From a virus, in IMG/VR virus record IMGVR_UViG_3300042691_030495: a DNA stretch of 64,000 bases. One strand, written 5' to 3'. Made by a program: the position numbers and the translations under genes. A model generated the notes under the pieces. It made no database searches, was not told the DNA's origin, and worked only from the letters and a program-made list of their open reading frames with translations. Shown here piece by piece: positions 1 to 41,014 of the stretch. How positions within the stretch are numbered: position 1 is the first letter of the stretch; every line of letters starts with the position of its first letter.

Positions 1-2370
<2,370 letters not shown>

Positions 2371-2461: not shown

Positions 2462-3058
2462 TTACTTTAACTTTTTTATCCAGAATGCTGCTGATATGTA
2501 TTTTGTACCAAAAGTTACAGGAAGGGGTTCGTGGTAAAAGGGGGGCACCGAGGGGAAAACTAGAATACTTCCTGCCGAGGGCTTTATTGTCACATCTTGG
2601 TCGGGGAACCTAAGCTCTCCTCCTTCATAATCATCATTTAAATACATAACAGCAGACATAAGTGGCTCAATATTTGGTTCCCCGTAGTAGTCAACGTGCG
2701 GCCCCATTGCAGCGCCTACCCTATATTTAGAGATTCCTATTGACTCTGGTTCTATGTACTCTATGTTAAATCTTTGGGCGTAGTCTTTGCCTGCGGCGTC
2801 TAGTGCTGACTTTATAGTGGTGTATATAAAAGAAACTACTTCTGAGCTTTTGCTAAGCTTAGCCTCGTCTGTATATTTTTGATGTCCAAATATTTGTTTT
2901 TCTTCTGTCCCCGAGGCTACCCATTCGCGCCATGGGTCTATTAGATCACCATTTTTTAGCTGACTGTTAGATGTTTCTAGTAGCTCTACTATATTCTTTG
3001 GATTGGGGATGGCCTGTTCATAGTAGCAAATTCTTTCTGCAAATACTTCTGGGCTCAC
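2462..3058 (-). CDS. 2OG-Fe(II) oxygenase, prolyl 4-hydroxylase-like
   Basis: HVD...YLNDDYEGGEL.F...HEP...GTKY. Start placed at the GTG overlapping the upstream stop (track gives 3085). Confidence 0.9.
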   Translation of the reverse strand: MSPEVFAERICYYEQAIPNPKNIVELLETSNSQLKNGDLIDPWREWVASGTEEKQIFGHQKYTDEAKLSKSSEVVSFIYTTIKSALDAAGKDYAQRFNIEYIEPESIGISKYRVGAAMGPHVDYYGEPNIEPLMSAVMYLNDDYEGGELRFPDQDVTIKPSAGSILVFPSVPPFYHEPLPVTFGTKYISAAFWIKKLK

Positions 3059-3792
3059 TATGCGTACTTGTTTCCTTTTTCCCACTCTTCTTTTTGCGCA
3101 GCCTGCTCAGAACGAATTCCTTTTATTTCTTCTTCCCACTTGGCTTTTGTTTCGTCTGAGTACTCTGCGTCGGCAAAATCCCAAAAAGAAACCATAGTAT
3201 ACCTAGTTCCTTTTAGTATTTCTTTTACTCCGTGGATATTCTCAACACCTCCAGGGAAACAAATATAAGAGTATGCAGCTGGCTGGAACTCTATGTTGTG
3301 TTCTGGGAAGTATAACTCTCCACCCTCGTAGTCGTTATTTAGATAAAGTATTCCAACGTACTTATTAATCTCAAAAGCGTTTGGCGTTCCATCAAAATCT
3401 GAGTTATCTGAGTGAGGCGCAGCAAAACCTCCTACATCCCATTTTTGAGCGTGAGACGTGTTTGCAACCACTTCTCTATCAAATACAGCTTCTATAGCTT
3501 CTTTAAACCTATTTCTTAGTGAGTCAAAAAACATAGGCGGTAAGTTGTATTCAGCAAGTCTTGGGTCATCTGGGTGTATTCCCATGCCGGAGGATCCGTA
3601 AAATGCTATATCTCCCCATATTTCTGAGTATGATTCGACATAGTTAATAATGCTCACAGCGGCTTCAGGGGTCACAAAATTTGGAATTTCTATAATCCTA
3701 TTTTGTGGAATTCCTAGCTCTCCTAAAGTGTTGGGAGCGTCTTTGTAAATTTTAAAAGTACTGACGTCTATGCTATCTACAAAAAGTGACAT
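3058..3792 (-). CDS. 2OG-Fe(II) oxygenase, prolyl 4-hydroxylase-like
   Basis: HSD...YLNNDYEGGELYF...HGV...GTRY. Confidence 0.9.
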   Translation of the reverse strand: MSLFVDSIDVSTFKIYKDAPNTLGELGIPQNRIIEIPNFVTPEAAVSIINYVESYSEIWGDIAFYGSSGMGIHPDDPRLAEYNLPPMFFDSLRNRFKEAIEAVFDREVVANTSHAQKWDVGGFAAPHSDNSDFDGTPNAFEINKYVGILYLNNDYEGGELYFPEHNIEFQPAAYSYICFPGGVENIHGVKEILKGTRYTMVSFWDFADAEYSDETKAKWEEEIKGIRSEQAAQKEEWEKGNKYA

Positions 3793-3794
3793 AT

Positions 3795-4490
3795 CTACTC
3801 TCCAATTTTCTCTGAGCTAGTGTTTTTGTGTGACACTATTGTCCAGAAAAACGGACAAACATATCTAATTCCAGATGTAATTTCCGTCACCCCGTGGATG
3901 TAGTTCATATCTCCTGGAAAAAAGTATGCTGATCCAGGCTTTGGCTTAAACTGTATTCCTTGATCTGGGAAGTACAACTCTCCACCCTCGTAATCGTCAT
4001 TTATGTAGAACAGTCCGGCAATGTCATAGTATGGAAAGTCATTTGGTTTACCTCGATCTTCACCAATATGTAGCTCTTTATCTGCATGCGGATATTGGAA
4101 TTGTCCAGGCAGCCACCTGACCACAGCTGCGCTGGTGGGTAGAGCATCTACGTTAAAAAATTTATCTACTTCTACTTTTAGCCTAGCTTGCATGCCTTCA
4201 ATAACTTCTACAACTTTGGGGTCTACAGAGTTTAAAGTTTCATCTGTAGCTACGCGGTCTGCCCAGTAAGAGGCGTCATAGATACATACTCCATCTTCAT
4301 TAAAATGGGACTCAGTCACATCCCAGGCTGTATTTTTACGAGCAAAATTATTTAAATACTCTAGCTCATACTCCGTCATAAAGTTGTCTAAAGAAACGAT
4401 ATTGTCTGGAGATGCTCCAAAAAAGCCGGAAGGCGTGATTGAAACCCTTACAGGGTTGGATTTGCTGTTAGTTACATTTTCTTGGCTCAT
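3795..4490 (-). CDS. 2OG-Fe(II) oxygenase, prolyl 4-hydroxylase-like
   Basis: HAD...YINDDYEGGELYF...HGV...GIRY. Confidence 0.9.
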   Translation of the reverse strand: MSQENVTNSKSNPVRVSITPSGFFGASPDNIVSLDNFMTEYELEYLNNFARKNTAWDVTESHFNEDGVCIYDASYWADRVATDETLNSVDPKVVEVIEGMQARLKVEVDKFFNVDALPTSAAVVRWLPGQFQYPHADKELHIGEDRGKPNDFPYYDIAGLFYINDDYEGGELYFPDQGIQFKPKPGSAYFFPGDMNYIHGVTEITSGIRYVCPFFWTIVSHKNTSSEKIGE

Positions 4491-4504
4491 AGTTATATCC
4501 TATA

Positions 4505-5239
4505 TTATTCGTAAACCCTACGAGTCCAAACTTGTTTTTGGTAGACGCCCCCGTCCGGGACGCGGTATTTTGCACTATTAGAGTGGTTGTTTGTGGCCAT
4601 TTCTTTGTGGGAAATATCTGCGTCTACCTCGGAATGCCAATTTTCCCTCTTAAAAGGTAGCATCTGAGCGTATGGGGTCCCTGCTGGTACAACTCCAGTA
4701 AAGCCTTTTACTACAAAAAATGGCATAGTTCCAGGAAGATTTACTTGATCATTATCTATGATTCCACTGGTAGTTAGAAATGGCAGTTCAAATCTATTAA
4801 ATGGCTGGGTGTAGAGAACGCTGTAGCCTTCTGGAACTTTTACTGCCCAGTCAGACCACCATGCAAAGTGAAATTCATGATAGCCCATGGGATGAGAAAA
4901 TTGATGCATCGGTGGGCGCACCTGAACGAAGTCTTTGTTTTTTTCATCTAAAACTTTTACTTTTATTGCTCCATTTTCTTCATAAAATTCTATGTCGCAT
5001 GGGGTACGGTATACATATCCTGTCCCCATTATGTCAAATATTGCTGGACAGGCTTTCCAAGTTGGTATTTTTCCCCCGACCATCGGATCTTGCCAATACT
5101 CTCCAGTATCTGGTTTTACTGCAAATCTATCGGCTTTTCTATACCAGTCAGGGATTGTTTGGATTGTAGGTTTAGGTACTGAATCGCTCTCCCTGGTCAG
5201 CCACGGCCTATTTCTAATAAAACTAATTAGCTGTTTCAC
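4505..5239 (-). CDS. DUF6065-related protein
   Basis: IPDWYR, TWKACPAIFD, PEGYSVLYTQPFNR and PAGTPYAQMLPFKRENW motifs. Confidence 0.6.
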   Translation of the reverse strand: MKQLISFIRNRPWLTRESDSVPKPTIQTIPDWYRKADRFAVKPDTGEYWQDPMVGGKIPTWKACPAIFDIMGTGYVYRTPCDIEFYEENGAIKVKVLDEKNKDFVQVRPPMHQFSHPMGYHEFHFAWWSDWAVKVPEGYSVLYTQPFNRFELPFLTTSGIIDNDQVNLPGTMPFFVVKGFTGVVPAGTPYAQMLPFKRENWHSEVDADISHKEMATNNHSNSAKYRVPDGGVYQKQVWTRRVYE

Positions 5240-5957
5240 TTGTAGCTCCTGTCACGGGGCATACTGTTGTTTTTAGTTTAATACTTTTTGTCTCGTGCTT
5301 TCCCATAGAAGATCCGTCATAGTTAGTAGCATTTCTATACATTTTAGACCAGTCGCCTACAGAATTTTTAGCCTCCGCTGCGTCTCCATACTTTTTTAGC
5401 TCTTCCCAGTACTCTGGTGGCATGCTTCCTTCGGTTATTGACATCTCGTAGTTATTTTGTAGGCCAGCTACTGAAATTGGTATGATTGCAGCAACTGGAG
5501 TTCCCGCTGGTATAAATATTTCTTTATTTGGTTCGGTTATTTTTATAGCTATTGGTAGTTCTCCGGGATAAAAAGACGTGCTCATAAGAGTTGTAAAAGT
5601 CTGCATTCCTCTTATGAATTGATTGGGGACTGGCATCGTTAATATAGACGTATCTTCATCTGTATTAATTAGTAGTCCGGTTTTAAAGCTTAAGCTTGCA
5701 TGGGACCTACCTGTATACACGGTATCTTCGCCCTCTAAAATTGTTACATGGTCCGGTTCATAGTTGTCTACACCATCCCACACTGCACGAATATCTCTAT
5801 CAAATGATATTCCCCAGCCAAGACCATTTGTTAGCGTTAACGGAAAACACATGTAGGCATGCTTATCAGCTGTATTGTCCATCCAGTCTCTAGTGGCTTT
5901 TAGCTGTTCTAATTTAGCTGATTCAGGTCCTAATCGTTGGACCCTTATTTTTTTCAC
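5223..5957 (-). CDS. DUF6065 family protein
   Basis: RDWMD...HAYMCFPLTLTNGLGW...PVPN...PAGTPVAAIIP. Confidence 0.7.
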   Translation of the reverse strand: MKKIRVQRLGPESAKLEQLKATRDWMDNTADKHAYMCFPLTLTNGLGWGISFDRDIRAVWDGVDNYEPDHVTILEGEDTVYTGRSHASLSFKTGLLINTDEDTSILTMPVPNQFIRGMQTFTTLMSTSFYPGELPIAIKITEPNKEIFIPAGTPVAAIIPISVAGLQNNYEMSITEGSMPPEYWEELKKYGDAAEAKNSVGDWSKMYRNATNYDGSSMGKHETKSIKLKTTVCPVTGATSETAN

Positions 5958-6706
5958 TAGTTTCCGGTCTCGATATCGAAAGCAGGCTTGTGAAACTTAT
6001 CGGAAAAATCTAACATAGTTACCATCGAGTATTTTGTACCGGATGTTACTGGCATAGCTCGGTGGGGGTACATGTAGTTAGATGGGAACACATACAAATC
6101 TCCAGCTTTAGGTTTAACAGTAACTCCTTGGATGCTGAAAGCCAGCTCTCCACCTTCATAGTTGTCGTTTGGAAAAGCCACCAAAGACACTACGCAGTTA
6201 TACGAGTACCCGTGATCGTGGTGCTCTTGAAAGTGTTGCCCTGGTCCATACTTAACGTAGTTAGTTGCCTCCCAATAGCGGAGCTCACCGATGTTGTAAT
6301 TTTTGGTGTAGTGTTTGACTGCTTGTAGCTGCCTGTAGTGAGTGTCTTCCCACAGCTTTACTAGTTTTTGTCCAGCCTCTGACTTGTCGTGTTCAATATC
6401 ACTTTTTTTGTATTTAAAGTCAAAGCAGTCTCTATACTCTGGCATTTTTACTCCGTAGCCAACTAACGCATCTTGATATGTATATCTGTTAGAAGGGTCT
6501 AATAGAACACCTTCTAGACGATTGATAACGTCCATATTTTCTTGAATTACGTTCTCGTATACCCAGATACCGGAGTTTGGGGCTATTTCTCTAGCATTAG
6601 ACCACGTTTGTTCTTGAATCTCATACCAATTTTGGAGTCTATCTTGGTGCTCTGACATCTCCTGTTTCATTCGGTCGTCTGGCTCTCCTACATGCTTATC
6701 TTGCAT
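5957..6706 (-). CDS. 2OG-Fe(II) oxygenase, prolyl 4-hydroxylase-like
   Basis: HHD...NDNYEGGEL.F...FPSNYMYPHRA...GTKY. Confidence 0.9.
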   Translation of the reverse strand: MQDKHVGEPDDRMKQEMSEHQDRLQNWYEIQEQTWSNAREIAPNSGIWVYENVIQENMDVINRLEGVLLDPSNRYTYQDALVGYGVKMPEYRDCFDFKYKKSDIEHDKSEAGQKLVKLWEDTHYRQLQAVKHYTKNYNIGELRYWEATNYVKYGPGQHFQEHHDHGYSYNCVVSLVAFPNDNYEGGELAFSIQGVTVKPKAGDLYVFPSNYMYPHRAMPVTSGTKYSMVTMLDFSDKFHKPAFDIETGN

Positions 6707-6716
6707 TTTAAACTCC

Positions 6717-7469
6717 TTAATACTTTAGCTTGTAGTCTTGAATAATTGGGGAAACTTTATGATTTACGTCGCCTCGGTCGTTATAGTCAGTCATAATTAC
6801 AACTGAATATTTGACTCCCGAGATCATATCTTGAGAAGCATGTTCATAGATATATGTGGATGGGAAAACCACGATGTCTCCAGCTTTAGGCTTAATAGAT
6901 AAGCTATTCATTCTAGGAAACCAGATCTCTCCACCCTCGTAGTCGTCGTTTAGGTATACAACAACTGATATGGTGCACACATAAGTTGGCCCGTGGTCTG
7001 CGTGAACTTTAAAGTGGGTTCCCGGTCCGTCATATTTTACAAAATTAAAAGCTTCGTAAGATGCAATACCTACGCCCCAGTATTGACCGTAATCATCTAC
7101 ACATTGGCGGACCGCTTGAAAGACTCCTTCGTGAACATCGTAGAGTTCGGCGTTGTGTTCATTGCGCGGGCCTAAACCAGTGGAGTTTATTTTAAAATCT
7201 AAAGCATTTCTTGCTTGTAGATCAACTTCCGAAGACGAGGTGACTCGAGCGCCGTTCCAGCCATACCTGCCACCACTACTTAAGTTTTTCTCTAGCGTAT
7301 CAATATAGCTTTTACCTTGTTCCTTGGTAATTGCTCCACTATACACGTTAATACCTAGGGCAGGGTTAGCTACACTGATATTTGGATTGTGCAGCGATGC
7401 CCTATCTGGCATTCTATTTGCTGAGGTCTCTGACCTATCTTTTGTAAACCAATCATTCATACTGTACAT
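6717..7469 (-). CDS. 2OG-Fe(II) oxygenase, prolyl 4-hydroxylase-like
   Basis: HAD...YLNDDYEGGEIWF...HAS...GVKY. May start leaderless at 7460, after TAGGAT. Confidence 0.9.
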   Translation of the reverse strand: MYSMNDWFTKDRSETSANRMPDRASLHNPNISVANPALGINVYSGAITKEQGKSYIDTLEKNLSSGGRYGWNGARVTSSSEVDLQARNALDFKINSTGLGPRNEHNAELYDVHEGVFQAVRQCVDDYGQYWGVGIASYEAFNFVKYDGPGTHFKVHADHGPTYVCTISVVVYLNDDYEGGEIWFPRMNSLSIKPKAGDIVVFPSTYIYEHASQDMISGVKYSVVIMTDYNDRGDVNHKVSPIIQDYKLKY

Positions 7470-7523
7470 CCTACAGCATTTTTTAAAATTTGCTGTAAAA
7501 ACAGTGATAAATCTTACTGGTGT

Positions 7524-8363
7524 CTAAACTGCTCTAACCCGGAAGCCAGGAGGGAAGAAAGGGAACCTAGGCGGGAAGAACGGGAAGAAAGGGAACCTAG
7601 GCGGGAAGAACGGGAAGAAAGGGAACCTAGGCGGGAAGAACGGGAAGAAAGGAGGGAAGAATGGGAAGAACGGGAAGAATGGGAAAAACGGGAAGAACGG
7701 CGGGAAGAAAGGAAAAAATGGTGGAAAGAATGGAGGAGTTGTGTTTTGAATAGAAAGGGGGGAAAACTCCGAGTTACCGTTAGCATTAATTGCTCTTACT
7801 TTATACTGCTGAGAAGTGTTAGCTTCCTGAAGCACGTTTGCTGAAGTTGATGCAGTAGTGTCTGATTTAGAGTCTGTACTCTCCCAGTAATAAGAAGTTA
7901 TTGCAGATCCGCCAGTTGCAGGGGCTGACCAAGAGACCGCGTCAATTTGGTTAGCGTTAGATCCTGGATTTGTTGTGTTAGCAGTAGAGTTAGTGACTGT
8001 AGGGGCGTTTGGTGTTGCTGGCACAGTGGTCACGGCTACTGTTGTTGTTGCAGAAGAGGCTGATGTTCCTGCTGCATTTGTTGCAGTCACGCTAATGGTA
8101 TAAGTTACTGCAGAAGTTAGAGTCTCTACCACTACTGGAGATGAAGACCCTGTTCCAGTCCTAGTTGTTTCTCCAGAAGCCGTAGCGGTTACGGTGTAAG
8201 AAGTTGCTTCTGGTGAGGTGGCAGGTAGAGAAAAAGCTACGCTTGCTGCACCATTGTTAAATCCCCTGTTTGTTCCTACGTTTGTAGCAACTATGTTAAT
8301 AGGAGCCGATGGCTCTAAAGAGTCATTTTGCTGTTGGGAACGCTTGCCAGGTGATTTGCTCAT
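7524..8363 (-). CDS. Two-Fn3-domain protein with C-terminal Pro/Phe repeat tail
   Basis: Fn3 motifs (PSAP, YTVTA, VTATNAAGTS; WSAP..GGSAITSY, YKVRAINANGNS), then PPFFPPFFPFFPP...PPRFPFFPPGFRVRAV. Confidence 0.85.
   Translation of the reverse strand: MSKSPGKRSQQQNDSLEPSAPINIVATNVGTNRGFNNGAASVAFSLPATSPEATSYTVTATASGETTRTGTGSSSPVVVETLTSAVTYTISVTATNAAGTSASSATTTVAVTTVPATPNAPTVTNSTANTTNPGSNANQIDAVSWSAPATGGSAITSYYWESTDSKSDTTASTSANVLQEANTSQQYKVRAINANGNSEFSPLSIQNTTPPFFPPFFPFFPPFFPFFPFFPFFPFFPPFFPFFPPRFPFFPFFPPRFPFFPFFPPRFPFFPPGFRVRAV
7552..7738 (-). repeat. Pro/Phe-coding repeat, including three exact 30-bp tandem units
   Basis: The unit gggaagaaagggaacctaggcgggaagaac (+ strand) occurs three times from 7552, followed by degenerate 9/12-bp units. 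Confidence 0.95.
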
Positions 8364-8389: not shown

Positions 8390-9250
8390 TTAAGCCTTTA
8401 GGTCTCCAAAGACCAGCCAAGTGTTTGCAGCTACCTTAGTCAGGGATACTGAAGAATTCAACGCCCTAAAGACCAATCCAGGTGTATACAAAAGAGTCAC
8501 AGACGCTCCTTGCACAATAGAAGCTCCTCCAGCTCCCACGCTCTGGTAGAAGTTGAGGGTAGTCCCAATTGGGAAAGTGATTGAGTTAGTAGTGTCTGCA
8601 TCTACTGTAACACTATAAGCTCCGCCAATTGCAGTTAGTGAGTCTCTATATGTTAAGGGCTGAGGTAGTGTTGATGTGGTGGCATTGGCTGTAATGGCAG
8701 CTTTGATCGGAGTAAGCGACGGTACACCCTGCAATGTCTGAGTTCCATCGGAAAACGCAATGCCGCTAGCACCAACGGTTACTGTTCCTGTAAATGTTGG
8801 GGATGCCTTAGGAGCTAGGGTGGTGTCTGTTGGGTGAACGTGATCTGCTCTAGCATACTTTAAAGATGTACCAGCTGCAGCAGTGCCGTCAGCTTCCGGA
8901 GTGGCTGAAGCAGCTTGACCAACAACAAATGCAGTAGTTGCAATCTGTGTGTCGTTTTGGTCAGCGGTTGCTGTTGGTGCTACTGGTGTTCCGGTAAACG
9001 ACGGGCTTGCTAGTGGTGCCTTGTCCTCGAGTTGGTCTTGAATAGAGGAGGTTACGCCAGCTACGTAGCCAATCTCTGTTGACGTGGTAGTGGCAGCTAC
9101 AAGATATCCGTCAACATCTGAAACAATGTCTCGACTTGCAGTGTACTGCGCGCGGTTTGGTGTCCAAACCTCTCCAGACCAAGTCCAAGTTCGGTCATTG
9201 TACGTATACTCATCGCCAACTTCTGGTTCTGCAGGAAAATTAATAGGCAT
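8390..9250 (-). CDS. Tail-fibre-like virion protein
   Basis: MPINFP..P.VGD.Y N-terminus, KAPLASPSFTGTPVAPT and YARADHVHP repeats, C-terminal FPIGT...NTWLVFGDL module. Confidence 0.8.
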   Translation of the reverse strand: MPINFPAEPEVGDEYTYNDRTWTWSGEVWTPNRAQYTASRDIVSDVDGYLVAATTTSTEIGYVAGVTSSIQDQLEDKAPLASPSFTGTPVAPTATADQNDTQIATTAFVVGQAASATPEADGTAAAGTSLKYARADHVHPTDTTLAPKASPTFTGTVTVGASGIAFSDGTQTLQGVPSLTPIKAAITANATTSTLPQPLTYRDSLTAIGGAYSVTVDADTTNSITFPIGTTLNFYQSVGAGGASIVQGASVTLLYTPGLVFRALNSSVSLTKVAANTWLVFGDLKA

Positions 9251-12200
9251 TATGCTTGTGCCTCTGTCCATGCTAGACGACCGCTGAATGACGCAGTTGA
9301 TGACGATAGGTTAGTTACAACGATGGTTAGTGTGTCTGGGCCATCTGGATAAATGCCTGAGTTAGAGGTTGTACCTCCACCACCAAGCACACAGTTGCCA
9401 AGGTCGCGAAGGCGGCTCAGCTCGATTGAGTCAGTACCCTGAGACAAGAAACCACCAGTAATTTCACCACCGGAGACAGTTACGTTACCATTTGTACGAT
9501 AGTCAGCAATTTGAGCCAGAGATGAGTTGGCTGTTCCTGTTTCAGCGAAGTTTGGAGTGGTCCAGGCGACTGAAGCTGAAGGCACTGCGTTCAAGTATGC
9601 ACGCACTAGATAGTTTGTACTCGCTGAGGTTGTGGTCACACCAAGGCTGTTCATCTTAAGCTGCATGCGGTTGATGATTTCACGCTGTCCAAAGTTAGCG
9701 CTAATGCCATTATCTACAGATGGAGCTAAACGGATTGAGAACAGTGCTTTCGATCCATTCGCTGGGATTGAAACGGTTCCAGTCTGACCGTAGGTAAAGA
9801 TGAGAGACGCATCATCGTCGAAACGACCATCCATAATTACCGACGTTCCCCAGTGGGAGATGGACGGTGCAAATGAAGGATACGCCAACTCCACCGAAGT
9901 GGGTGCAGTATCTACGTGGGTGTAGGTCTGAGCAGTCGCACCCATTGGTGCAAAAATCAGTGTTGGGTTAGATGAAGTGATTGCAGTATTTAAAGTGACT
10001 ACAGTACCGGCAATGTTTGTGATAAACGCACCATCTGGGGCTGGGCTAGGAGATGTGCTAGAAAACACGCGCTGTCCAACTTGAAGTCCAGTTGCATCTG
10101 AAACAATTCCTGAGTTAGATCCAGTAGTCCAAGTAGTGGCTACAGCGGTTGCACCAGCACCACCACGAGTTAGACCGGTGAAAGTGGTTGCAGTCTTGCC
10201 AGTGTAGTTTACGTACTCTTGCAATAGTCCAGCCTGGTTATCAGTAGTACTAGGGCGAATAATAAGAGTTCCTGATGAAGGGAACGCAGAGGTGTCAAGC
10301 ACTGTCATGGTTGTGTCAGTGCTTGAGAGACTCTCATCAACACGGGTAGTTGGTGGCAGCGTGGAAGACTCGTAGCGAGCTGGGAGGTTTCCAGAACGCA
10401 TATACGCTTCGTTGTTGACGTTGTTGTTCTTCATCTTGTGAACGTAGAACACGTTGCCGTCTTCACCACGGAGGCCCCAGCGAATAAAGCCAGCACCATA
10501 CCAAGAGTAGTCAATGTAGAACATCTGCATCTTCGTTAAGTCAACGGTGTAGCCAGAAGGTCCAGTACCGTCACACTTGTCTAAGTTGAACTGAGACTGA
10601 GGAATACGAACATCAATAGTCTTTGAAATACTCACGTGAGACGCGCTAGCAGCACGATATGAAGGTGAAATCGTGAAGTTAGGGGTAGCTGATATGTCAT
10701 CAACCGCGATAACTCGGTATGACTGTCCGCGGATTACTACATAGTCGCCTGGGATTAGCTGGCTAGAGTATGCAGTTGGGAATGAAGAACTAGTACGGGT
10801 AACTACGTTAGAGCCTTGAGTTACAGTTGAGCGACCAGAGAGCTGCTGAGTAGATGAGCGCTTTACAACATATAGACCTTGGCCATCAAACTCCCAGAAA
10901 ACACCGTTTTGAGAGTCAAACTGACCTAGTCGGTTAGCTGATCCGTACCAAGAGTTTACGTTTAGGTTTACGATACCAGTAGCTGGTCCAGCAGCAGATG
11001 TCGCCATCTCGTATGTAAATGTGTTAAAGCCAGTAATCTGGGCTACGCTGAATGTTCCGTTGTATGGAGCTTCGTTTGCACCCGCAACTAGGATCGAGGT
11101 TCCTGGCTGAATGTTGTGCTGCTCTTTAGTGGTAACAGTGGCAGTAGTTCCAGACGAGGTAATACCATCGATGGTTGCATATGGCTTAAAGATTGTTCCA
11201 GATGAAATTTGAAGACCCTTACCTGACTGGTAACGGAAGTAACGTCTAGTCTGACGAATTGCAGCTTCGTAGTTTGAGCTTGCGTTAGCAGAGAACAAAA
11301 CACCACCATCAAATGCACGGTGCAAGAACTGAGCCTGCGGACGTACATAAATAGACGCGTTTGTTGCAGTTAAGCCAGAAGGAGTGCCTTCAGTAGGGTC
11401 GGCGTAATAAACAAAAGTGGTTGGGGTGGCTACTGTTGCCACGCGGTATGAGCCGTTTGGTGGATTAGTTCCAGTGATACCAGTCACCGCAATTGTGTTA
11501 CCAATTGATAGCCCGTGAGGAACAGTAGTCGTTACATTCACCTTAAGATCTGAACCTGAAACCGTAACGGTTGGAGTTCCACCAATTTTTGCGTTGGTGT
11601 ATAAGTTAGCAACGTAAATTGCAGTCTTGTTTGGGTCGAGAATGTCTGTAACAGTGGTTTTGTTTTGAGCACGACCTAGGTAGGTAAATGTTCCAGTACC
11701 TCCACCTGACTCGATCAAGAAGTTACCGTTTGCCTCTGAAAGAAAAGTATCCTGTACGTTTACTGCAGTTCCGGTAACAGGGGCAACACCGGCAATAGCC
11801 TGACCTGAAGTCCAAGTCTCTGTTCCTGTTGTTGAATTTACAACTGCAAAAGTTGTGGTGCTTGGGGTTGAGTAGATTAAGTAAGTTCCGTTATAACCAG
11901 AAATTGATGATCCAGAAATAGTCACGTATTGCCCTGTTGAAAAACCGTGAGCCGCAGAAGTTGTGTATTGAACGTAGCCAGAAAATGGGGTGGATGGGTC
12001 AGCGCCAGTTACAGTTGCTGTAGTTGTAGAAAGTGTCACTGTCACAACGCGAGCGTTTGTTGACATGCTTATTCCAGAAACGTTAGGGATTGCAGTTGCT
12101 GAGGGTGCTGCAAAAGGACGGTTGTTGGTTACGGCTAGATTCTCCCACTTAGATTGCTGGGTACCGTACTCAAAGTCGGTATCGATCAGCGCCTGAGCGG

Positions 12201-12288
12201 TAGAGGTGCGTAGTTTATTTACCGGATCGGTAAGAATTTCTGTTGGGTTAAAACGGCCATCTGATGCCGGAAACTGTTGAATACTCAT
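9250..12288 (-). CDS. Large virion structural protein with repeated beta-barrel (TT..HG...G..V.I.G) modules
   Basis: 1012 aa, Thr/Gly/Ser-rich, ALIDTDFEYG, RQTRRYFRYQSGKG, MFYIDYSWYGAG; lies in the structural cluster. Confidence 0.7.
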   Translation of the reverse strand: MSIQQFPASDGRFNPTEILTDPVNKLRTSTAQALIDTDFEYGTQQSKWENLAVTNNRPFAAPSATAIPNVSGISMSTNARVVTVTLSTTTATVTGADPSTPFSGYVQYTTSAAHGFSTGQYVTISGSSISGYNGTYLIYSTPSTTTFAVVNSTTGTETWTSGQAIAGVAPVTGTAVNVQDTFLSEANGNFLIESGGGTGTFTYLGRAQNKTTVTDILDPNKTAIYVANLYTNAKIGGTPTVTVSGSDLKVNVTTTVPHGLSIGNTIAVTGITGTNPPNGSYRVATVATPTTFVYYADPTEGTPSGLTATNASIYVRPQAQFLHRAFDGGVLFSANASSNYEAAIRQTRRYFRYQSGKGLQISSGTIFKPYATIDGITSSGTTATVTTKEQHNIQPGTSILVAGANEAPYNGTFSVAQITGFNTFTYEMATSAAGPATGIVNLNVNSWYGSANRLGQFDSQNGVFWEFDGQGLYVVKRSSTQQLSGRSTVTQGSNVVTRTSSSFPTAYSSQLIPGDYVVIRGQSYRVIAVDDISATPNFTISPSYRAASASHVSISKTIDVRIPQSQFNLDKCDGTGPSGYTVDLTKMQMFYIDYSWYGAGFIRWGLRGEDGNVFYVHKMKNNNVNNEAYMRSGNLPARYESSTLPPTTRVDESLSSTDTTMTVLDTSAFPSSGTLIIRPSTTDNQAGLLQEYVNYTGKTATTFTGLTRGGAGATAVATTWTTGSNSGIVSDATGLQVGQRVFSSTSPSPAPDGAFITNIAGTVVTLNTAITSSNPTLIFAPMGATAQTYTHVDTAPTSVELAYPSFAPSISHWGTSVIMDGRFDDDASLIFTYGQTGTVSIPANGSKALFSIRLAPSVDNGISANFGQREIINRMQLKMNSLGVTTTSASTNYLVRAYLNAVPSASVAWTTPNFAETGTANSSLAQIADYRTNGNVTVSGGEITGGFLSQGTDSIELSRLRDLGNCVLGGGGTTSNSGIYPDGPDTLTIVVTNLSSSTASFSGRLAWTEAQA

Positions 12289-19388: not shown

Positions 19389-19706
19389 TTATGAGAGATG
19401 AGCTTTTCCAGAGATTGCTGCTGAAAAAGTAATAATTAGTGTTACTTGATTGGTGTGACTGACTGTGCCTTCTACCATTGAGCCAGCGCTATCGTAAACG
19501 GTGACGTTAGGAAAGAAGTTTAGGTTGTGGTTTACTGTCCACGCAGCTGATACAGCCCCTTGGTTGTGTACGTATGAAACTAGATCCACTACTTCGCTAG
19601 TCTGAACACCGGAGAGTCCTGATGCTCCCTGCGGTCCAGGAGCGGTAACTACTATCTGTCTAGCGTTTCTACCTGAAGTAACGTTGCTTGATGAGTCGCT
19701 TGGCAT
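19389..19706 (-). CDS. Small virion protein
   Basis: VVTAPGPQG motif; YVHNQ...WTVNHNLNFFPNVTV...SGKAHLS. Confidence 0.65.
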   Translation of the reverse strand: MPSDSSSNVTSGRNARQIVVTAPGPQGASGLSGVQTSEVVDLVSYVHNQGAVSAAWTVNHNLNFFPNVTVYDSAGSMVEGTVSHTNQVTLIITFSAAISGKAHLS

Positions 19707-20068
19707 TATCTAGTCACCTCTGCTCGAACTACAAAATTTCCACGTAAAATCTTGTATACGTAAAGACTGCTAGTTGGGGCAACTAACTCTAGGTCGTACA
19801 AATACTTACCTTCTGGTATAGTTGCCATGACCTCATCCGTAACGTATATATTGATATGACCGTTAGTCTGACCCAAAGATATTCCACCGTTTTCAGTAGT
19901 AATTGAAAGAATTACTGTGGAGTTATCAGAGATCGATCTAACTTTCATTCTGGCTGTATAACCCGCCAAAAGAATCGGTTTTTTTGCAGGATCTCTCCAT
20001 AAAACAGTGCGTGACAAGGTGGAGCCTTGATCAGCCACGATATTATAAAGACCGGCAGGAGCGCTCAT
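19706..20068 (-). CDS. Small virion adaptor protein, paralog of 2011-2370
   Basis: DQGSTL...GYTARMKVR...YLYDLEL...KILRGNFVVRAEVTR. Confidence 0.6.
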   Translation of the reverse strand: MSAPAGLYNIVADQGSTLSRTVLWRDPAKKPILLAGYTARMKVRSISDNSTVILSITTENGGISLGQTNGHINIYVTDEVMATIPEGKYLYDLELVAPTSSLYVYKILRGNFVVRAEVTR

Positions 20069-32318: not shown

Positions 32319-33254
32319 GTGAGTTACCTAAACAAAACAATTTTTGTTATGGTCCCTGCTTATAGAGATCCAGTGCTTAGGGAGACTCTTGATTCAATAT
32401 TTCAAAATGCCTTGAACCCTGAAAGAGTGTTTGTTGCTATTGGTGCTCAGTACGATAATGAAATTCCAATGCCAGATCTTACGGGGCTTCCTAGTAAAAA
32501 CCTAAGATTGTTGACTATACACCCTGAAAATAGGCCAGGGGTATACAGGCTTAGAAGCATCCTTAATAAGTTGTATGCTGGCGAAGACTACTATCTATCT
32601 ATAGATTCTCACACCTTTTTGGCGGAAGGCTGGGACGAAGAGTTAATCCGCAGCTTAGAGTCATTCAATGACAAGAAGACAGTACTACAGGCTTACGAGC
32701 CTGGCTCAATTTTGCACAAGAATGGCACCATGAAGTATATTCACTATCAGATGTCTGTCAGCTTAGATAATGAAGTAAATATCCCGAGGCTTGTTATGAA
32801 AGATTTAATATACAAAGACTTATTAGAGACTGAAGAGATGCCTGTTTCAGACTATGTTCAAGCTGGAATGATATTCACTAGAGGAACCTTTGCAGATGAG
32901 ATTAGATGGGGCGAACTCTGGCAAAATGACCAAGAAGAGCCGTTCCTATCTTTTGAAATGTTTATGCTGGGTTGGACCTCGAGGTTGATGGTGACGCAGA
33001 AAGTTATTAATCATGAACCAGATAGGTATTATGAAACGGTCTACAGTAGTGAGCCGGAGAGCCACAATAGGAATTTTCGTGATAGTTGGGGCATCCAGAA
33101 AGATGATTTGTCTGTAGTGTGCCCCAAGATTTTTGCAGCTATGATTAGTAATTCTGGTCCTTTTAAAGTGTTAAAGGCCATTAAATCTCCTCGAGACTGG
33201 TGGCACTCAATTGGTCTTGAAGACGAGTATGAGAAATATAAAGATCTTTTTTAA
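32319..33254 (+). CDS. GT60-like glycosyltransferase (hydroxyproline GlcNAc-transferase/Gnt1 family)
   Basis: TIFV...AYRDP.L..TL..IF.NA.NPERVFV, EDYYLSIDSH..L..GWD..LI, AGMIF..G.F, EE..LS...F..GW. Confidence 0.8.
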   Translation: MSYLNKTIFVMVPAYRDPVLRETLDSIFQNALNPERVFVAIGAQYDNEIPMPDLTGLPSKNLRLLTIHPENRPGVYRLRSILNKLYAGEDYYLSIDSHTFLAEGWDEELIRSLESFNDKKTVLQAYEPGSILHKNGTMKYIHYQMSVSLDNEVNIPRLVMKDLIYKDLLETEEMPVSDYVQAGMIFTRGTFADEIRWGELWQNDQEEPFLSFEMFMLGWTSRLMVTQKVINHEPDRYYETVYSSEPESHNRNFRDSWGIQKDDLSVVCPKIFAAMISNSGPFKVLKAIKSPRDWWHSIGLEDEYEKYKDLF

Positions 33255-33287
33255 AAGTTTTAGGATAATGTGTATGTTATAAGAAAA

Positions 33288-33361
33288 CGAGACTTAGCTC
33301 AGCTGGTTAGAGCAAACGGCTCATAACCGTTCGGTCGTCGGTTCAAGTCCGACAGTCTCGA
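33288..33361 (+). tRNA. tRNA with CAT anticodon (elongator Met or Ile2)
   Basis: CGAGACT/AGTCTCG acceptor (C1-G72 paired, so not initiator); AACGG-CTCATAA-CCGTT. Confidence 0.9.
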
Positions 33362-33379
33362 CAGAAAGGAAAAGAAAAA

Positions 33380-33889
33380 ATGACAGCACTAAATTTAACT
33401 CCCGAAGCTTTAGCCAGGTTTTGGGCAAAGGTAGATATAAAAGATGAAAAGTCATGCTGGCTTTGGACTAGAGCGGTAAATAGTAAGGGCTATGGTTCTT
33501 TTGCTATAAACGGTAAAGGAGTTTCTGCTCACAAGATATCTTGGGCTTTAGCTAAAAATGATGGAATTTTGTCTGGTCCTAAAGATCACGTTATGCACTC
33601 CTGTGATATTAGATCCTGCGTCAACCCAAACCACTTAAGTCTAGGCAGTGCTCGTGATAATGCTAGAGATGCAATAAGCAAAGGCCGAAATGTAGTGAGA
33701 ATTCCTAGTAAGGATCCGTACTGCAAAAAAGGCCACCCTAGAACTCCTGAGAACACCCACCCCAAGAAGCACACCTGTCTTGTTTGCGAACGAGACTCTA
33801 ACAGAGAATCAAAAAGAAGAGAGCGCGAGAGAGATAGACCGGCTTACAACAAGAAGCACAGAGAGTACTATCAGAGGACTAAGAAGTAG
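33380..33889 (+). CDS. HNH homing endonuclease
   Basis: RFWAKV...CWLW...GYG...AHK...VMHSCD...CVNPNHL..G...DN, then C..GH. Confidence 0.9.
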   Translation: MTALNLTPEALARFWAKVDIKDEKSCWLWTRAVNSKGYGSFAINGKGVSAHKISWALAKNDGILSGPKDHVMHSCDIRSCVNPNHLSLGSARDNARDAISKGRNVVRIPSKDPYCKKGHPRTPENTHPKKHTCLVCERDSNRESKRRERERDRPAYNKKHREYYQRTKK

Positions 33890-33894
33890 AAATT

Positions 33895-34161
33895 ATGATT
33901 GAAAGAGGTAACATACGTCAGGTAGCTGAAGCTATAGGAATGTCCCCCCATACGCTGTACTCGTGGAGACGAATTGGTTTCCTAGAGATGGGAGCTGACG
34001 GCCAAGTTGAGGTTGCCCACGCTCTTAAGATTAAAGCTTTTATGAAAAAGTGGAAGCGAAGCAACAATCAAAATGACAGGATGCCAGCCCTGTTTAGGGG
34101 CGGAATTAGTAACTATCATGAGTCAGTTATAACAAGAATTAAAAAAGATTTAAGACCCTAA
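33895..34161 (+). CDS. MerR-like HTH protein
   Basis: IRQVAEAIGMSPHTLYSWRRIG. Confidence 0.6.
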   Translation: MIERGNIRQVAEAIGMSPHTLYSWRRIGFLEMGADGQVEVAHALKIKAFMKKWKRSNNQNDRMPALFRGGISNYHESVITRIKKDLRP

Positions 34162-34214
34162 GCAGGGCTAAAGCTAGCGGTCTAGACTTCACGGTATGTG
34201 ATTACAATTAACTT

Positions 34215-35540: not shown

Positions 35541-35609
35541 CTTGCCAAAGTGGGGTAACCTGTGATACAGTGTTTTTGCGTTAAAAACAAATATAGATAG
35601 GAGACGCAA

Positions 35610-35957
35610 ATGAAACAAAAATCTGCACTTAGGCTCTCGGAAGAGACTTTATCATATGAGAATGCTTGGAGATACGGAAAGTATTTTTATATAGCTACCT
35701 TGACTGACGGAAGGGATGTCGGGTTTTCTGCTGACAAAGTTCTAGTTACCGACACAGGGGACCTGTTAGCTATGTCCACATCCTTTGCAAGAGATAGAGG
35801 AGACGGCACTGGCAAATTTGATCGCGAAGAAACAGAGGCTAGAACTACTGTTTGCCTAGCAAAAGGTCAGTGGGTCTCTTTCTATGCAGCTAGTGCCTTA
35901 ACCGGAGATCCAGTCGGCCTTGATTGGGTTGAGGGGTATGTAGCTAAAAAGTCTTAG
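35610..35957 (+). CDS. Hypothetical protein
   Basis: AGGAG SD; AKGQWVSFYAAS..TGDP. Confidence 0.65.
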   Translation: MKQKSALRLSEETLSYENAWRYGKYFYIATLTDGRDVGFSADKVLVTDTGDLLAMSTSFARDRGDGTGKFDREETEARTTVCLAKGQWVSFYAASALTGDPVGLDWVEGYVAKKS

Positions 35958-35968
35958 TAATTAAGACA

Positions 35969-36041
35969 CCCCGTGTACTCCAATGGCAGAGAGAGCCGAC
36001 TTAAAATCGGTACAGTATCGGTTCGAGTCCGATGGCGGGGA
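35969..36041 (+). tRNA. tRNA-Leu(TAA), short variable arm
   Basis: GCCGA-CTTAAAA-TCGGT; ATCGG-TTCGAGT-CCGAT; A73. Confidence 0.85.
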
Positions 36042-36055
36042 CATAATTCAGAATC

Positions 36056-36640: not shown

Positions 36641-36697
36641 ATGGTAATTATATATCATAAGGTCCCTAAGTGTGGGGCTGTGTTATGATATGGGAAT

Positions 36698-36898: not shown

Positions 36899-36899
36899 G

Positions 36900-38594: not shown

Positions 38595-38663
38595 ATTTAA
38601 GTCTCCTAGTTTCACGTAGTATTAGACTATATTACCGGAACGCAAGCTGAGGAGATTTTCCCT

Positions 38664-39395: not shown

Positions 39396-39403
39396 TTAAA
39401 CAT

Positions 39404-40048: not shown

Positions 40049-40057
40049 GGATAAAAT

Positions 40058-40987: not shown

Positions 40988-41014
40988 GCCCGGGGATGGC
41001 CTATACTTAGTTAT

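What the first reader, a model, noticed from the sequence alone, without database searches (positions are those of the whole stretch)
2462..8363. Pro-Phe repeat virion protein with a dedicated seven-enzyme tailoring cassette
Seen: an Fn3-Fn3 protein ends in about 55 residues made almost only of Pro and Phe (PPFFPPFFPFFPP...(FFPPRFPFFP)x3). Directly downstream on the same strand lie five P4H-like 2OG-Fe(II) oxygenases, each with an intact HxD...H...K/R signature, and two DUF6065-like genes. The whole block sits inside the tail-fibre region. Known: viral and plant-type P4Hs hydroxylate Pro-rich repeats. Inference: this has a 'substrate plus modifying enzymes' layout, like a RiPP cluster. The tail may be hydroxylated at Pro, and possibly at Phe, by site-specific paralogs to give a modified adhesive or protective virion appendage.
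Basis: partly seen in the sequence, partly recalled or inferred. Interest (0 to 1): 0.92.

Follow-up and report, generated by a model that had tools for sequence, protein, structure and literature searches.

The report
Phage Phe-Pro tail with hydroxylase cassette
An uncultured large phage encodes, at the end of a tail-fibre operon, a small protein with a tail made almost only of phenylalanine and proline, followed by five prolyl-hydroxylase-type enzymes and two helper proteins; the same set recurs in about 160 related phage contigs, which makes the tail a testable substrate for phage oxygenases of unknown role, but no chemistry has been shown.

Summary
On the minus strand, an Fn3-Fn3 protein (7524-8363) ends in a 70-residue tail with 34 Phe and 27 Pro. 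Five 2OG/Fe(II) oxygenases with intact catalytic motifs and two DUF6065-type genes follow it, tightly packed inside a fibre operon.

In about 160 viral contigs the repeat gene and the cassette stay adjacent. That held in 61 of 61 loci anchored on Fn3 and in 44 of 45 anchored on DUF6065. The last locus lacks upstream sequence.

The core oxygenase folds like protein prolyl 4-hydroxylases, not like DNA or RNA oxygenases. The DUF6065 proteins have a dUTPase-like fold and show no evident catalytic motifs. Elsewhere they occur fused to the same oxygenase type. They are probably adaptor subunits, so "seven enzymes" overcounts.

In many homologs a Hint-like self-cleaving domain follows the repeat, so the repeat would be the mature C-terminal tail.

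My best reading is that the oxygenases hydroxylate prolines of this tail (about 55%). Rivals are collagen-like fibres, host proteins, and 2OG or nucleotide metabolism. Phe hydroxylation and an adhesive role are untested. This scan has noted the same system before on other DNA, and I found no paper describing it.

The parts
8390..9271 (-). Tail-fibre-like protein (293 aa), directly upstream of the repeat protein. Homologs hold this position in nearly all related loci.
   Evidence: PHROG tail-fibre families, E 1e-11 to 1e-5. Synteny maps.
7524..8363 (-). Fn3-Fn3 protein with a C-terminal Phe/Pro repeat tail. This is the candidate substrate.
   Evidence: Pfam fn3, 36.4 bits. 797 homologs, all with aromatic/Pro repeats after the Fn3 pair.
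7527..7736 (-). The 70-residue tail itself: 34 Phe, 27 Pro, 5 Arg. It ends PPGFRVRAV.
   Evidence: Translation and codon counts.
7552..7685 (.). 30-bp tandem repeat (4.5 copies, three of them exact) inside the tail's coding DNA. It indicates recent expansion.
   Evidence: Tandem Repeats Finder, score 203.
6717..7469 (-). Oxygenase 1 (250 aa), clade o2. This clade is present in the 88 PFFP-type loci and absent from all 19 FFxPP-type loci.
   Evidence: PF13640, 46.8 bits. Motifs. Tree clades.
5957..6706 (-). Oxygenase 2 (249 aa), clade o0. It is a universal core member of the cassette, and its stop overlaps the start of the DUF6065 gene.
   Evidence: PF13640, 54.1 bits. AF2 model pLDDT 93.5. The best fold matches are all protein prolyl 4-hydroxylases.
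5223..5957 (-). DUF6065 protein a (244 aa), a universal core member. It has a dUTPase-like jelly roll plus C-terminal helices and is probably an accessory subunit.
   Evidence: Pfam DUF6065, 89.8 bits. AF2 pLDDT 79. VIA Z about 10 and Foldseek 1e-4 to dUTPases. Fusions to 2OG oxygenases elsewhere.
4505..5239 (-). DUF6065-like protein b (244 aa), a divergent paralog. It is missing in some FFxPP-type loci.
   Evidence: phrog_7084, 2.8e-32. hhalign to the DUF6065a profile, 92% probability, E 6e-7.
3795..4490 (-). Oxygenase 3 (231 aa), clade o1, a universal core member.
   Evidence: PF13640, 31.6 bits. Motifs. Clades.
3058..3792 (-). Oxygenase 4 (244 aa), clade o6, in the variable part of the cassette.
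   Evidence: PF13640, 31.7 bits. Motifs.
2462..3085 (-). Oxygenase 5 (207 aa), clade o9, in the variable part of the cassette.
   Evidence: PF13640, 50.3 bits. Best PDB sequence hit is the Bacillus anthracis P4H, 1e-5.
2011..2370 (-). Small fibre-assembly-like protein that closes the cassette and opens the next fibre module. A second copy lies at 19706-20068.
   Evidence: phrog_1084 2.6e-24 and phrog_3304 1.3e-8.
2..2011 (-). Collagen-like fibre (GPT/GAT triplets) that runs off the window. It is a rival substrate.
   Evidence: Translation. A collagen-like ORF follows the cassette in only 19 of 41 loci with enough downstream DNA.

Best explanation
This is a conserved phage module for modifying one of the phage's own fibre-locus proteins. 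The last gene of a tail-fibre operon encodes two Fn3 domains followed by a genetically expandable repeat built from Phe-Phe (or Tyr) and Pro or Pro-Pro. The genes that follow are packed as one unit. They encode a core of prolyl-4-hydroxylase-type 2OG/Fe(II) oxygenases (clades o0 and o1, here also o2), one or two DUF6065 proteins, and a variable set of further paralogs. I infer that the oxygenases hydroxylate prolines of the repeat in their different sequence contexts (F-P-P, P-P-F, F-P-F). I infer that the DUF6065 proteins act as non-catalytic partners, either holding the substrate or assembling the enzymes. Hydroxylation would turn a very hydrophobic tail into a stiffer, more soluble polyproline-II-type stalk. 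It might also provide sites for sugars, because the phage also encodes a hydroxyproline-GlcNAc-transferase-family protein. In relatives, a Hint-like domain directly after the repeat would cut itself off, leaving the repeat as the C-terminal tail of the mature protein. Shown here: the gene content, the synteny, the folds and the fusions. Inferred: the substrate, the chemistry, the virion location and the purpose.
For: 1. Synteny. All 61 Fn3-anchored loci with at least 4 kb downstream carry DUF6065 plus at least two oxygenases. Of the 45 DUF6065-anchored loci with at least 5 kb upstream, fetched without any Phe-Pro pattern, 42 have the repeat gene upstream. L115 has it too. The genome of L088 has the full cassette next to an Fn3-repeat-Hint gene elsewhere. 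Only L147 is unresolved, because it lacks upstream sequence.
2. This linkage persists while Fn3 identity drops to 44-65% and DUF6065 identity to 39-75%. It also persists while gene order changes and the oxygenase count ranges from 4 to 10 in the 17 complete cassettes.
3. Every homolog keeps an aromatic/Pro repeat, though the grammar differs (PFFPPFF, PYFVPPFF, FFxPPG, FSPFG). Synonymous codon variation shows selection on the protein.
4. The core oxygenase model (pLDDT 93.5) matches only protein prolyl 4-hydroxylases among its top ~45 hits: Chlamydomonas P4H 2jig/3gze at 2e-10, PPHD, PHD2, PBCV-1 vCPH 5c5t, human C-P4H-II and B. anthracis P4H. All five paralogs keep the catalytic residues.
5. 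DUF6065 occurs naturally fused to 2OG-FeII_Oxy_3 in 5 of 10 long homologs tested and in an ESM Atlas cluster of 84 viral proteins.
6. In three more distant contigs that carry such fusions, a protein with a proline run lies within the four genes upstream. In L171 it is polyPro followed by Cys and a Hint-like domain. In L172 and L173 the proteins end in PPPPPP and PPPPPGP.
7. A collagen-like gene is a less constant neighbour than the repeat gene, 19 of 41 loci.
8. The window also encodes a PF11397 protein (Skp1 hydroxyproline GlcNAc-transferase family).
Against: There is no chemical, proteomic or expression evidence of any kind. All ~160 syntenic loci belong to one broad phage lineage, so shared descent could explain much of the linkage. 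The co-variation between repeat type and oxygenase clade o2 (88/19/7/0) rests on only three changes of type on the tree and is not statistically usable. The oxygenase count correlates only weakly with repeat length (rho 0.34, p 0.18, n = 17). The tail has almost no X-Pro-Gly or Ser-Pro sites like those used by characterised P4Hs. The phage has other oxygenases and other Pro-rich or collagen-like proteins. DUF6065 also occurs without oxygenases, in haloarchaeal viruses next to RNR and in a bacterial locus between RNA-modification genes. One further viral DUF6065/oxygenase locus showed no proline run in the DNA held.
Confidence: 0.55

Rival explanations
1. The oxygenases modify other structural proteins of the same fibre region: the collagen-like GPT/GAT fibres or the large fibre proteins. 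The Fn3-repeat protein would then be just another fibre-locus component or an assembly factor.
For: The cassette lies between two fibre modules, and a collagen-like fibre follows it in the window and in 19 of 41 loci. The best PDB sequence hit of oxygenase 5 is the Bacillus anthracis collagen-type P4H, at 1e-5. Lysyl hydroxylases LH3 and mimivirus L230 also appear. From my own knowledge, the B. anthracis enzyme can hydroxylate X-position Pro.
Against: A collagen-like gene is absent next to the cassette in about half of the loci with enough flank. The repeat gene is essentially always there. In distant contigs with DUF6065-oxygenase fusions, the nearby upstream gene is a proline-run protein, not a collagen. 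Collagen genes elsewhere in those genomes were not surveyed.
Confidence: 0.2
2. The oxygenases act on host proteins (for example EF-Tu or ribosomal proteins, as bacterial PPHD-type hydroxylases do). Alternatively, they simply consume 2-oxoglutarate to reprogram host metabolism, as proposed for cyanomyovirus 2OG oxygenases.
For: Pseudomonas PPHD bound to EF-Tu (4iw3) is among the top fold matches. Sullivan et al. 2010 (PMC3037559) proposed 2OG drawdown or DNA repair for the 1-5 oxygenases found in most cyanomyoviruses.
Against: The genes sit in a fibre operon with no promoter-like or terminator-like break that stands out, not among early genes. There are five to thirteen paralogs, only 20-36% identical to each other, held in conserved order. 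That speaks for distinct specific tasks, not bulk 2OG turnover. Fusion to DUF6065 and the constant repeat-gene neighbour are not explained.
Confidence: 0.1
3. The cassette modifies nucleotides or nucleic acids (TET/JBP-like or AlkB-like chemistry), with the dUTPase-fold DUF6065 proteins binding nucleotides.
For: DUF6065a has a dUTPase-like fold (Z about 10). Oxygenase 3 has a sub-threshold Tet_JBP hit (19.5 bits against a cut-off of 34.9). The haloarchaeal virus homolog lies next to RNR. A bacterial homolog lies between RlmN and a pseudouridine synthase.
Against: No TET, JBP or AlkB structure is among the top ~45 fold matches of the core oxygenase. There is no Pfam dUTPase hit. By eye, the residues invariant in DUF6065 do not resemble the dUTPase motifs. 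The location is a fibre operon. DUF6065 is also fused to a sulfotransferase and to TPR repeats, which fits an adaptor better than a nucleotide enzyme.
Confidence: 0.05

Closest known systems
Chlorovirus PBCV-1 prolyl 4-hydroxylase (vCPH, PDB 5c5t) and the proline-rich repeats encoded by that virus
   Same: Both are virus-encoded P4H-type 2OG oxygenases. The same virus also encodes proline-rich repeat proteins that can serve as substrates. 5c5t is among the top fold matches (1.4e-9).
   Different: PBCV-1 is a virus of eukaryotes with a single enzyme. To my knowledge that enzyme is not linked to a substrate gene, its repeats are of the PAPK type, and there is no DUF6065 partner. Here there is an array of 4-10 or more paralogs fixed next to an aromatic/Pro repeat gene in a phage fibre operon.
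Algal and plant hydroxyproline-rich glycoprotein pathway (Chlamydomonas P4H-1, PDB 2jig/3gze; extensins)
   Same: It is the best structural match of the core oxygenase (2e-10). Its substrates are polyproline-II repeats, and hydroxylation is followed by O-glycosylation. The window encodes GT60-, GT61- and NTP-transferase-type proteins.
   Different: The plant and algal substrates are Ser-Pro and poly-Pro repeats in secreted wall proteins. Here the repeat is Phe/Tyr-Pro, the system is cytoplasmic and phage-encoded, and glycosylation is only a possibility.
2OG-Fe(II) oxygenase sets of T4-like cyanomyoviruses (Sullivan et al. 2010, PMC3037559)
   Same: Large tailed phages with multiple PF13640-type oxygenases of unknown role. 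The window's fibre protein at 9250-12288 is 41-44% identical to cyanomyovirus virion proteins.
   Different: The cultured cyanophages have only partial, 26-41% identical matches to these oxygenases. No homolog of the Fn3-repeat protein or of DUF6065a was found in 50,697 phage records. No substrate has been proposed there.
RiPP biosynthetic gene clusters (precursor plus tailoring enzymes plus a recognition element)
   Same: A gene-encoded substrate lies next to several tailoring enzymes and a possible non-catalytic recognition protein.
   Different: There is no short leader/core precursor, no protease or exporter, and no known RRE fold. The 'leader' is two folded Fn3 domains, and the product is probably a structural protein rather than a released peptide.
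Hedgehog and bacterial intein-like (Hint) autoprocessing domains
   Same: Many homologs carry a Cys-initiated domain of about 150 aa, often ending in HN, directly after the repeat. There are weak Pfam hits to PT-HINT, Hint_2 and Intein_splicing.
   Different: The window's own protein lacks this domain. All the Pfam hits are below their cut-offs, and cleavage or ligation has not been tested.
Trimeric dUTPases (e.g. PDB 1dun, 5y5o, 3zez)
   Same: DUF6065a shares the jelly-roll fold (Z 9.7-10.2 over about 115 residues).
   Different: There is no Pfam dUTPase hit and no recognisable dUTPase motif. DUF6065a has an extra C-terminal helical part and is found fused to oxygenases and to a sulfotransferase.

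Membership tests
P4H-type 2OG/Fe(II) oxygenases (Pfam PF13640) | Pfam score above the curated cut-off | tested here: met
   All five score 31.6-54.1 bits against a cut-off of 27.
P4H-type 2OG/Fe(II) oxygenases (Pfam PF13640) | HxD...H iron triad and a basic residue that binds the 2OG C5 carboxylate | tested here: met
   The alignment of the five paralogs shows H-x-D, the distal H and a K/R-Y in every one. These are invariant H162, D164, H215 and K225 in 41 orthologs of oxygenase 2.
P4H-type 2OG/Fe(II) oxygenases (Pfam PF13640) | Fold closest to protein prolyl hydroxylases rather than to nucleic-acid or small-molecule oxygenases | tested here: met
   For the oxygenase 2 model (pLDDT 93.5), nearly all of the top ~45 Foldseek hits are protein P4Hs. 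The other four paralogs were not modelled.
P4H-type 2OG/Fe(II) oxygenases (Pfam PF13640) | Hydroxylates peptidyl proline | not testable with these tools
   This needs an enzyme assay or mass spectrometry.
DUF6065 (Pfam PF19541) | Pfam score above the cut-off | tested here: met
   The protein at 5223-5957 scores 89.8 bits against 26.6.
DUF6065 (Pfam PF19541) | The second gene (4505-5239) belongs to the same family | tested here: inconclusive
   No Pfam hit at E <= 0.01. It shares phrog_7084 and matches by hhalign at 92% probability, E 6e-7 over 134 columns. It is a divergent paralog.
Fibronectin type III domain | Pfam fn3 score above the cut-off | tested here: met
   36.4 bits against 25, in two stretches.
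Trimeric dUTPase family | Jelly-roll fold | tested here: met
   VIA Z 9.7-10.2, rmsd 2.3-2.8 Å over about 115 residues. Foldseek 1e-4.
Trimeric dUTPase family | Sequence-family membership with the five conserved dUTPase motifs | tested here: not met
   No Pfam dUTPase hit at E <= 0.01. The invariant residues of the DUF6065 alignment do not resemble the motifs by eye. No residue-level structural alignment was made.
RiPP gene cluster | Short precursor with leader and core, a recognition element of known type, and a leader protease or exporter | tested here: not met
   The precursor is 279 aa with two folded Fn3 domains. No protease, exporter or RRE family was found among the ten ORFs scanned.
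Collagen-type P4H substrate | Repeated X-Pro-Gly triplets | tested here: not met
   The tail has a single Pro-Pro-Gly. The neighbouring collagen-like ORF has Pro mostly in the X position (GPT).
Hint/intein-like domain (in homologs only) | N-terminal Cys, C-terminal His-Asn and a Pfam Hint-family hit | tested here: inconclusive
   The Cys and HN motifs are present in many homologs. The Pfam hits are all below cut-off: 18-25 bits against 27.7-35.8. The window's protein has no such domain.

The most novel reading that the evidence does not exclude
Large uncultured phages carry a self-contained protein-tailoring system. An expandable aromatic/proline repeat at the C-terminus of a fibre-locus protein is multiply hydroxylated by a bank of diverged prolyl-hydroxylase paralogs. 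These are recruited by a new class of dUTPase-fold adaptor (DUF6065). In many relatives a Hint domain then exposes or ligates the repeat, and the repeat may be glycosylated. This would be a phage counterpart of extensin or collagen maturation, and it would give phage 2OG-oxygenase arrays a first assigned substrate.
Probability: 0.4. Interest if true: 0.85.

Novelty: new variant of a known kind. Interest (0 to 1): 0.72.

Why it matters
Multiple 2OG/Fe(II) oxygenase genes have been known in cyanophages and other large phages since at least 2010 without an assigned substrate (PMC3037559). A gene-encoded repeat that stays beside a conserved oxygenase core across about 160 contigs is a concrete candidate. 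It can be tested at the bench by co-expression and mass spectrometry. If the reading holds, three things follow. Phages would chemically mature their own fibre-associated proteins. DUF6065 would gain a function as an oxygenase partner. The Phe/Pro repeat would be a new kind of hydroxylation substrate and possibly a new biomaterial motif. If it fails, the conserved linkage still marks an unexplained module worth study.

Tried and rejected
1. Complex prediction of oxygenase 2 with DUF6065a, using both alignments, returned no verdict. It says nothing either way.
2. Co-variation of repeat grammar with oxygenase clade o2 gives counts of 88/19/7/0. There are only 3 changes of type on the DUF6065 tree and too few independent pairs. 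Inconclusive.
3. Oxygenase count against repeat length gives rho 0.34, p 0.18. Against Tyr count it gives rho 0.49, p 0.045. With n = 17, no correction and no phylogenetic independence, I did not use either.
4. Megablast of the region and tblastn of the Fn3-repeat protein and DUF6065a against 50,697 phage records found nothing. There is no cultured relative to lean on.
5. A scan of genome contigs with the Fn3-repeat protein found 600 pattern hits but no relative. The DUF6065 alignment could not be used on that collection.
6. No whole genome is held for the window.
7. The 'longer' search for fused DUF6065 forms of 448 aa or more found nothing. The fusions of 375-419 aa came from the exhaustive search instead.
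8. Searches of five related complete or near-complete phage records for the window's PF11397 glycosyltransferase found nothing, and the controls did not ring. This is uninformative.
9. The sigma-70 promoter, terminator and T4-late (TATAAATA) scans gave no useful signal in the cassette.
10. Literature searches for DUF6065 and for the repeat strings found no phage paper.
11. I considered that the tail might be a non-coding polypyrimidine tract or be read in another frame, and rejected both. Fn3 upstream and Hint-like domains downstream are in the same frame in homologs, and the purines cluster at synonymous positions.

Full report
**What is there.** All the genes of the finding lie on the minus strand and read from high to low coordinates. 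The order is as follows:

- a 1012-aa virion structural protein (9250-12288), 41-44% identical to structural proteins of Synechococcus myoviruses such as S-PM2 and S-RSM4;
- a 293-aa tail-fibre-like protein (8390-9271);
- the Fn3-Fn3 protein with the Phe/Pro tail (7524-8363);
- oxygenase 1 (6717-7469) and oxygenase 2 (5957-6706);
- DUF6065a (5223-5957) and DUF6065b (4505-5239);
- oxygenases 3, 4 and 5 (3795-4490, 3058-3792, 2462-3085);
- a small fibre-assembly-like protein (2011-2370; phrog_1084/3304);
- a collagen-like fibre that runs off the window (2-2011).

Inside the cassette the gaps are 2-14 nt or the genes overlap, and 54 nt separate the repeat gene from oxygenase 1. The scans showed no promoter-like or terminator-like break that stands out. 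The region has no nucleotide match among 50,697 phage records, and no whole genome is held. The phage is uncultured. Its own DUF6065 protein is on record on a 142-kb contig.

**The tail.** From residue 210 the protein has 70 residues: 34 Phe, 27 Pro, 5 Arg and four others. The tail includes three exact 30-bp units. In the Phe/Pro codons, purines occur only at third positions of Pro codons, and Pro codons vary (CCT, CCG, CCA). In 105 distinct homologs the repeat uses CCA 61%, CCG 23% and CCT 15%. In many homologs the Fn3 domains upstream and a folded domain downstream are in the same frame as the repeat. The tail is therefore translated as Phe/Pro and is under selection as protein. It is not a stray polypyrimidine tract.

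**The family.** A protein search gave 797 hits. All those inspected have the two Fn3 domains followed by an aromatic/Pro repeat, but the grammar varies:

- PFFPPFF and PFFPFF, as in the window;
- versions with Tyr, His or Trp;
- PYFVPPFF;
- FFxPPG, with period 6;
- FSPFG.

What comes after the repeat also varies. It can be:

- nothing but a few residues, as in the window;
- a Cys-rich cap;
- an acidic tail;
- a Cys followed by a domain of about 150 aa, often ending in His-Asn. This gives sub-threshold Pfam hits to PT-HINT, Hint_2 and Intein_splicing.

If that domain cleaves itself as Hint domains do, the repeat becomes the C-terminal tail of the mature protein in those phages as well. That step is inference. 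No relative was found in one-genome-per-species prokaryote contigs or in cultured phages.

Eighty viral loci were fetched with the Fn3-repeat protein. The patterns used included Phe-Pro strings, so that set is biased towards such tails. A gene map shows the same order everywhere: fibre, Fn3-repeat, oxygenases and DUF6065 genes, all on one strand. All 61 loci with at least 4 kb downstream have DUF6065 and at least two oxygenases.

For an unbiased view I fetched 86 loci with a DUF6065a alignment. Of 45 with at least 5 kb upstream, 42 have the Fn3/repeat gene upstream. The three exceptions break down as follows:

- L115 does have an Fn3-FFxPPG gene that my BLAST threshold missed.
- L088 is a second oxygenase+DUF6065 pair in the replication module of a complete 115-kb genome. 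That genome carries the canonical cassette beside an Fn3-repeat-Hint gene 50 kb away.
- L147 begins inside an enlarged cassette and lacks upstream sequence.

The linkage holds while Fn3 identity to the window falls to 44-65% and DUF6065a identity to 39-75%.

**Anatomy of the cassette.** A tree of 777 distinct oxygenase sequences shows that the paralogs are old, conserved clades kept in order. The universal core is clade o0 (oxygenase 2), DUF6065a and clade o1 (oxygenase 3). Clade o2 (oxygenase 1) and DUF6065b are usual but not universal. A variable tail of further clades follows, giving 4-10 oxygenases in the 17 complete cassettes. The window's five paralogs are only 20-36% identical to each other, yet all keep HxD, the distal His, K/R-Y and the NDDYEGGEL-type motif. 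Clade o2 is present in 88 PFFP-type loci and absent from all 19 FFxPP-type loci, with 7 PFFP loci also lacking it. The repeat type changes only three times on the DUF6065 tree, so this cannot be separated from shared descent.

**What the enzymes are.** Sequence searches of the PDB give weak hits to the B. anthracis P4H, lysyl hydroxylase LH3, mimivirus L230, PiuC and PBCV-1 P4H. An AlphaFold2 model of oxygenase 2, built with 41 orthologs, has pLDDT 93.5. Its top ~45 Foldseek matches are almost all protein prolyl 4-hydroxylases:

- Chlamydomonas P4H, including the complex with a (Ser-Pro)5 peptide;
- Pseudomonas PPHD with EF-Tu;
- PHD2;
- PBCV-1 vCPH;
- human C-P4H-II;
- B. anthracis P4H;
- Dictyostelium PhyA.

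No TET, JBP or AlkB enzyme appears among them.

**What DUF6065 is.** The DUF6065a model (pLDDT 79) has a dUTPase-like jelly roll (VIA Z 9.7-10.2, Foldseek 1e-4) plus C-terminal helices. There is no Pfam dUTPase hit. By eye, the invariant residues of the family do not look like the dUTPase motifs. DUF6065b is a divergent paralog (hhalign 92%, E 6e-7). The ESM Atlas lists a viral cluster of 84 proteins that fuse 2OG-FeII_Oxy_3 with DUF6065, and a bacterial cluster that fuses JmjC/Cupin_8 with DUF6065. An exhaustive profile search found 1381 relatives. Of ten long relatives scanned, five are DUF6065+2OG-FeII_Oxy_3 fusions, one is a sulfotransferase+DUF6065 fusion, one carries TPR repeats and one an Arm DNA-binding domain. 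Such fusions argue that DUF6065 works physically with tailoring enzymes, most often this oxygenase type. I therefore read the two genes as accessory subunits, not enzymes. A complex prediction for oxygenase 2 with DUF6065a gave no verdict.

**Beyond this lineage.** Three contigs that carry DUF6065-oxygenase fusions could be read.

- L171 comes from a 188-kb contig with different, Ala/Asn-rich fibres. Its order is: fibre; a 226-aa ORF made of a Pro/Val run followed by Cys and a Hint-like start (Hint_2, E 0.004); three unassigned or methyltransferase-like genes; the fusion; an LtfC-like small protein; more fibres. This mirrors the window's layout with unrelated sequences.
- In L172, a 139-aa protein two genes upstream of the fusion ends with a run of six Pro.
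- In L173, the protein directly upstream ends in a five-Pro run.

A fourth viral locus (L175) has DUF6065 between two oxygenases but shows no proline run in the DNA held. A bacterial locus (L176) has DUF6065 alone, between RlmN and a pseudouridine synthase. Haloarchaeal viruses have it alone next to RNR. The association is therefore frequent in phages but not universal for the family.

**Rival substrates.** The collagen-like fibre is the obvious alternative. However, a collagen-like ORF (at least 10 GXY) follows the cassette in only 19 of 41 loci with 4 kb or more downstream. One lies upstream in only 2 of 74. Collagen genes elsewhere in those genomes were not surveyed. The window has further candidates and further enzymes. 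There is a 658-aa protein with a Pro/Thr/Glu-rich linker (48868-50844). There is also a second cluster at 32-42 kb with three more PF13640 oxygenases, a JmjC protein, two GT61 proteins, an NTP-transferase and a PF11397 protein. PF11397 is the family of the Skp1 hydroxyproline GlcNAc-transferase. That cluster supports the general idea that this phage makes and perhaps glycosylates hydroxyproline. It also weakens the word 'dedicated'.

**Known context.** Sullivan et al. 2010 (PMC3037559) recorded 1-5 2OG-Fe(II) oxygenases in 14 of 16 cyanomyoviruses and suggested DNA repair or 2OG turnover. I found no paper that mentions DUF6065, and none that links the repeat strings to a phage. This scan's own notes show that the same system has been seen before on other DNA, and other follow-up reports reached similar readings. 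I came to mine before reading them, and they are not independent evidence.

**Verdict.** On the other hand:

- the two DUF6065 genes are probably adaptors rather than enzymes;
- exclusivity for this substrate is not shown;
- every chemical and functional claim remains untested: Pro or Phe hydroxylation, site-specific paralogs, an adhesive or protective role, and presence in the virion.

I put about 55% on the oxygenases hydroxylating the repeat tail. I put 20% on other fibre proteins as the main substrates, 10% on host proteins or 2OG metabolism, and 5% on nucleic-acid chemistry. The remainder is unassigned.

Noticed in passing
L013:4810-6156, L025:6101-7480, L036:7487-8851, L114:2896-4224 (homologs of window 7524-8363): Many homologs continue after the repeat with a Cys and a domain of about 150 aa, often ending in His-Asn. 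Pfam hits to PT-HINT, Hint_2 and Intein_splicing are weak and below cut-off. Other homologs end in Cys-rich caps or acidic tails. Self-cleavage would leave the repeat as the mature C-terminus, possibly as a reactive thioester.
   Followed up: partly
window 32319-41719: A second modification cluster. It holds a PF11397 GlcNAc-transferase-family protein (Skp1 hydroxyproline type), a JmjC protein, two GT61 proteins, an NTP-transferase and three more PF13640 oxygenases.
   Followed up: partly
window 48868-50844 (-): A 658-aa ORF with no PHROG hit and a Pro/Thr/Glu-rich linker (16 Pro in 40 residues). It is another possible hydroxylation or glycosylation substrate.
   Followed up: no
L171:5394-9239: In a 188-kb contig with unrelated fibres, a polyPro(Val)-Cys-Hint-like ORF lies four genes upstream of a DUF6065-oxygenase fusion. 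Methyltransferase-like genes lie between them, and an LtfC-like gene follows.
   Followed up: partly
P0378, P0343, P0382 (distant DUF6065 proteins): DUF6065 is also fused to an Stf0-type sulfotransferase, to TPR repeats and to an Arm DNA-binding domain. The ESM Atlas lists bacterial JmjC/Cupin_8+DUF6065 fusions.
   Followed up: partly
L088:8772-10651 (record G001, 115 kb): A second oxygenase+DUF6065 pair sits in the replication module (DNA pol III alpha, RecA-like, RuvC-like neighbours) of a genome that also has the canonical fibre-locus cassette.
   Followed up: partly
L167 (Halophage HF1 48119-49003) and about 50 haloarchaeal tailed viruses: Homologs of the second DUF6065-like gene (26-34% identity) stand alone between ribonucleotide reductase and the tail/baseplate genes, with no oxygenase nearby.
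   Followed up: partly
L176:6001-6915: A bacterial DUF6065 gene lies between RlmN (a radical-SAM RNA methyltransferase) and a pseudouridine synthase, with no oxygenase. This hints that the family may have other partners.
   Followed up: no
window 2011-2370 and 19706-20068 (-): Two copies of a ~120-aa phrog_1084 / fibre-assembly-like gene. Each opens a run of fibre genes, so the cassette sits exactly at the junction of two such modules.
   Followed up: no
L141:18546-20312, L078:10666-11704, L046:2633-3643: Some related contigs carry a second Fn3-repeat gene on the other side of the cassette or further upstream.
   Followed up: no
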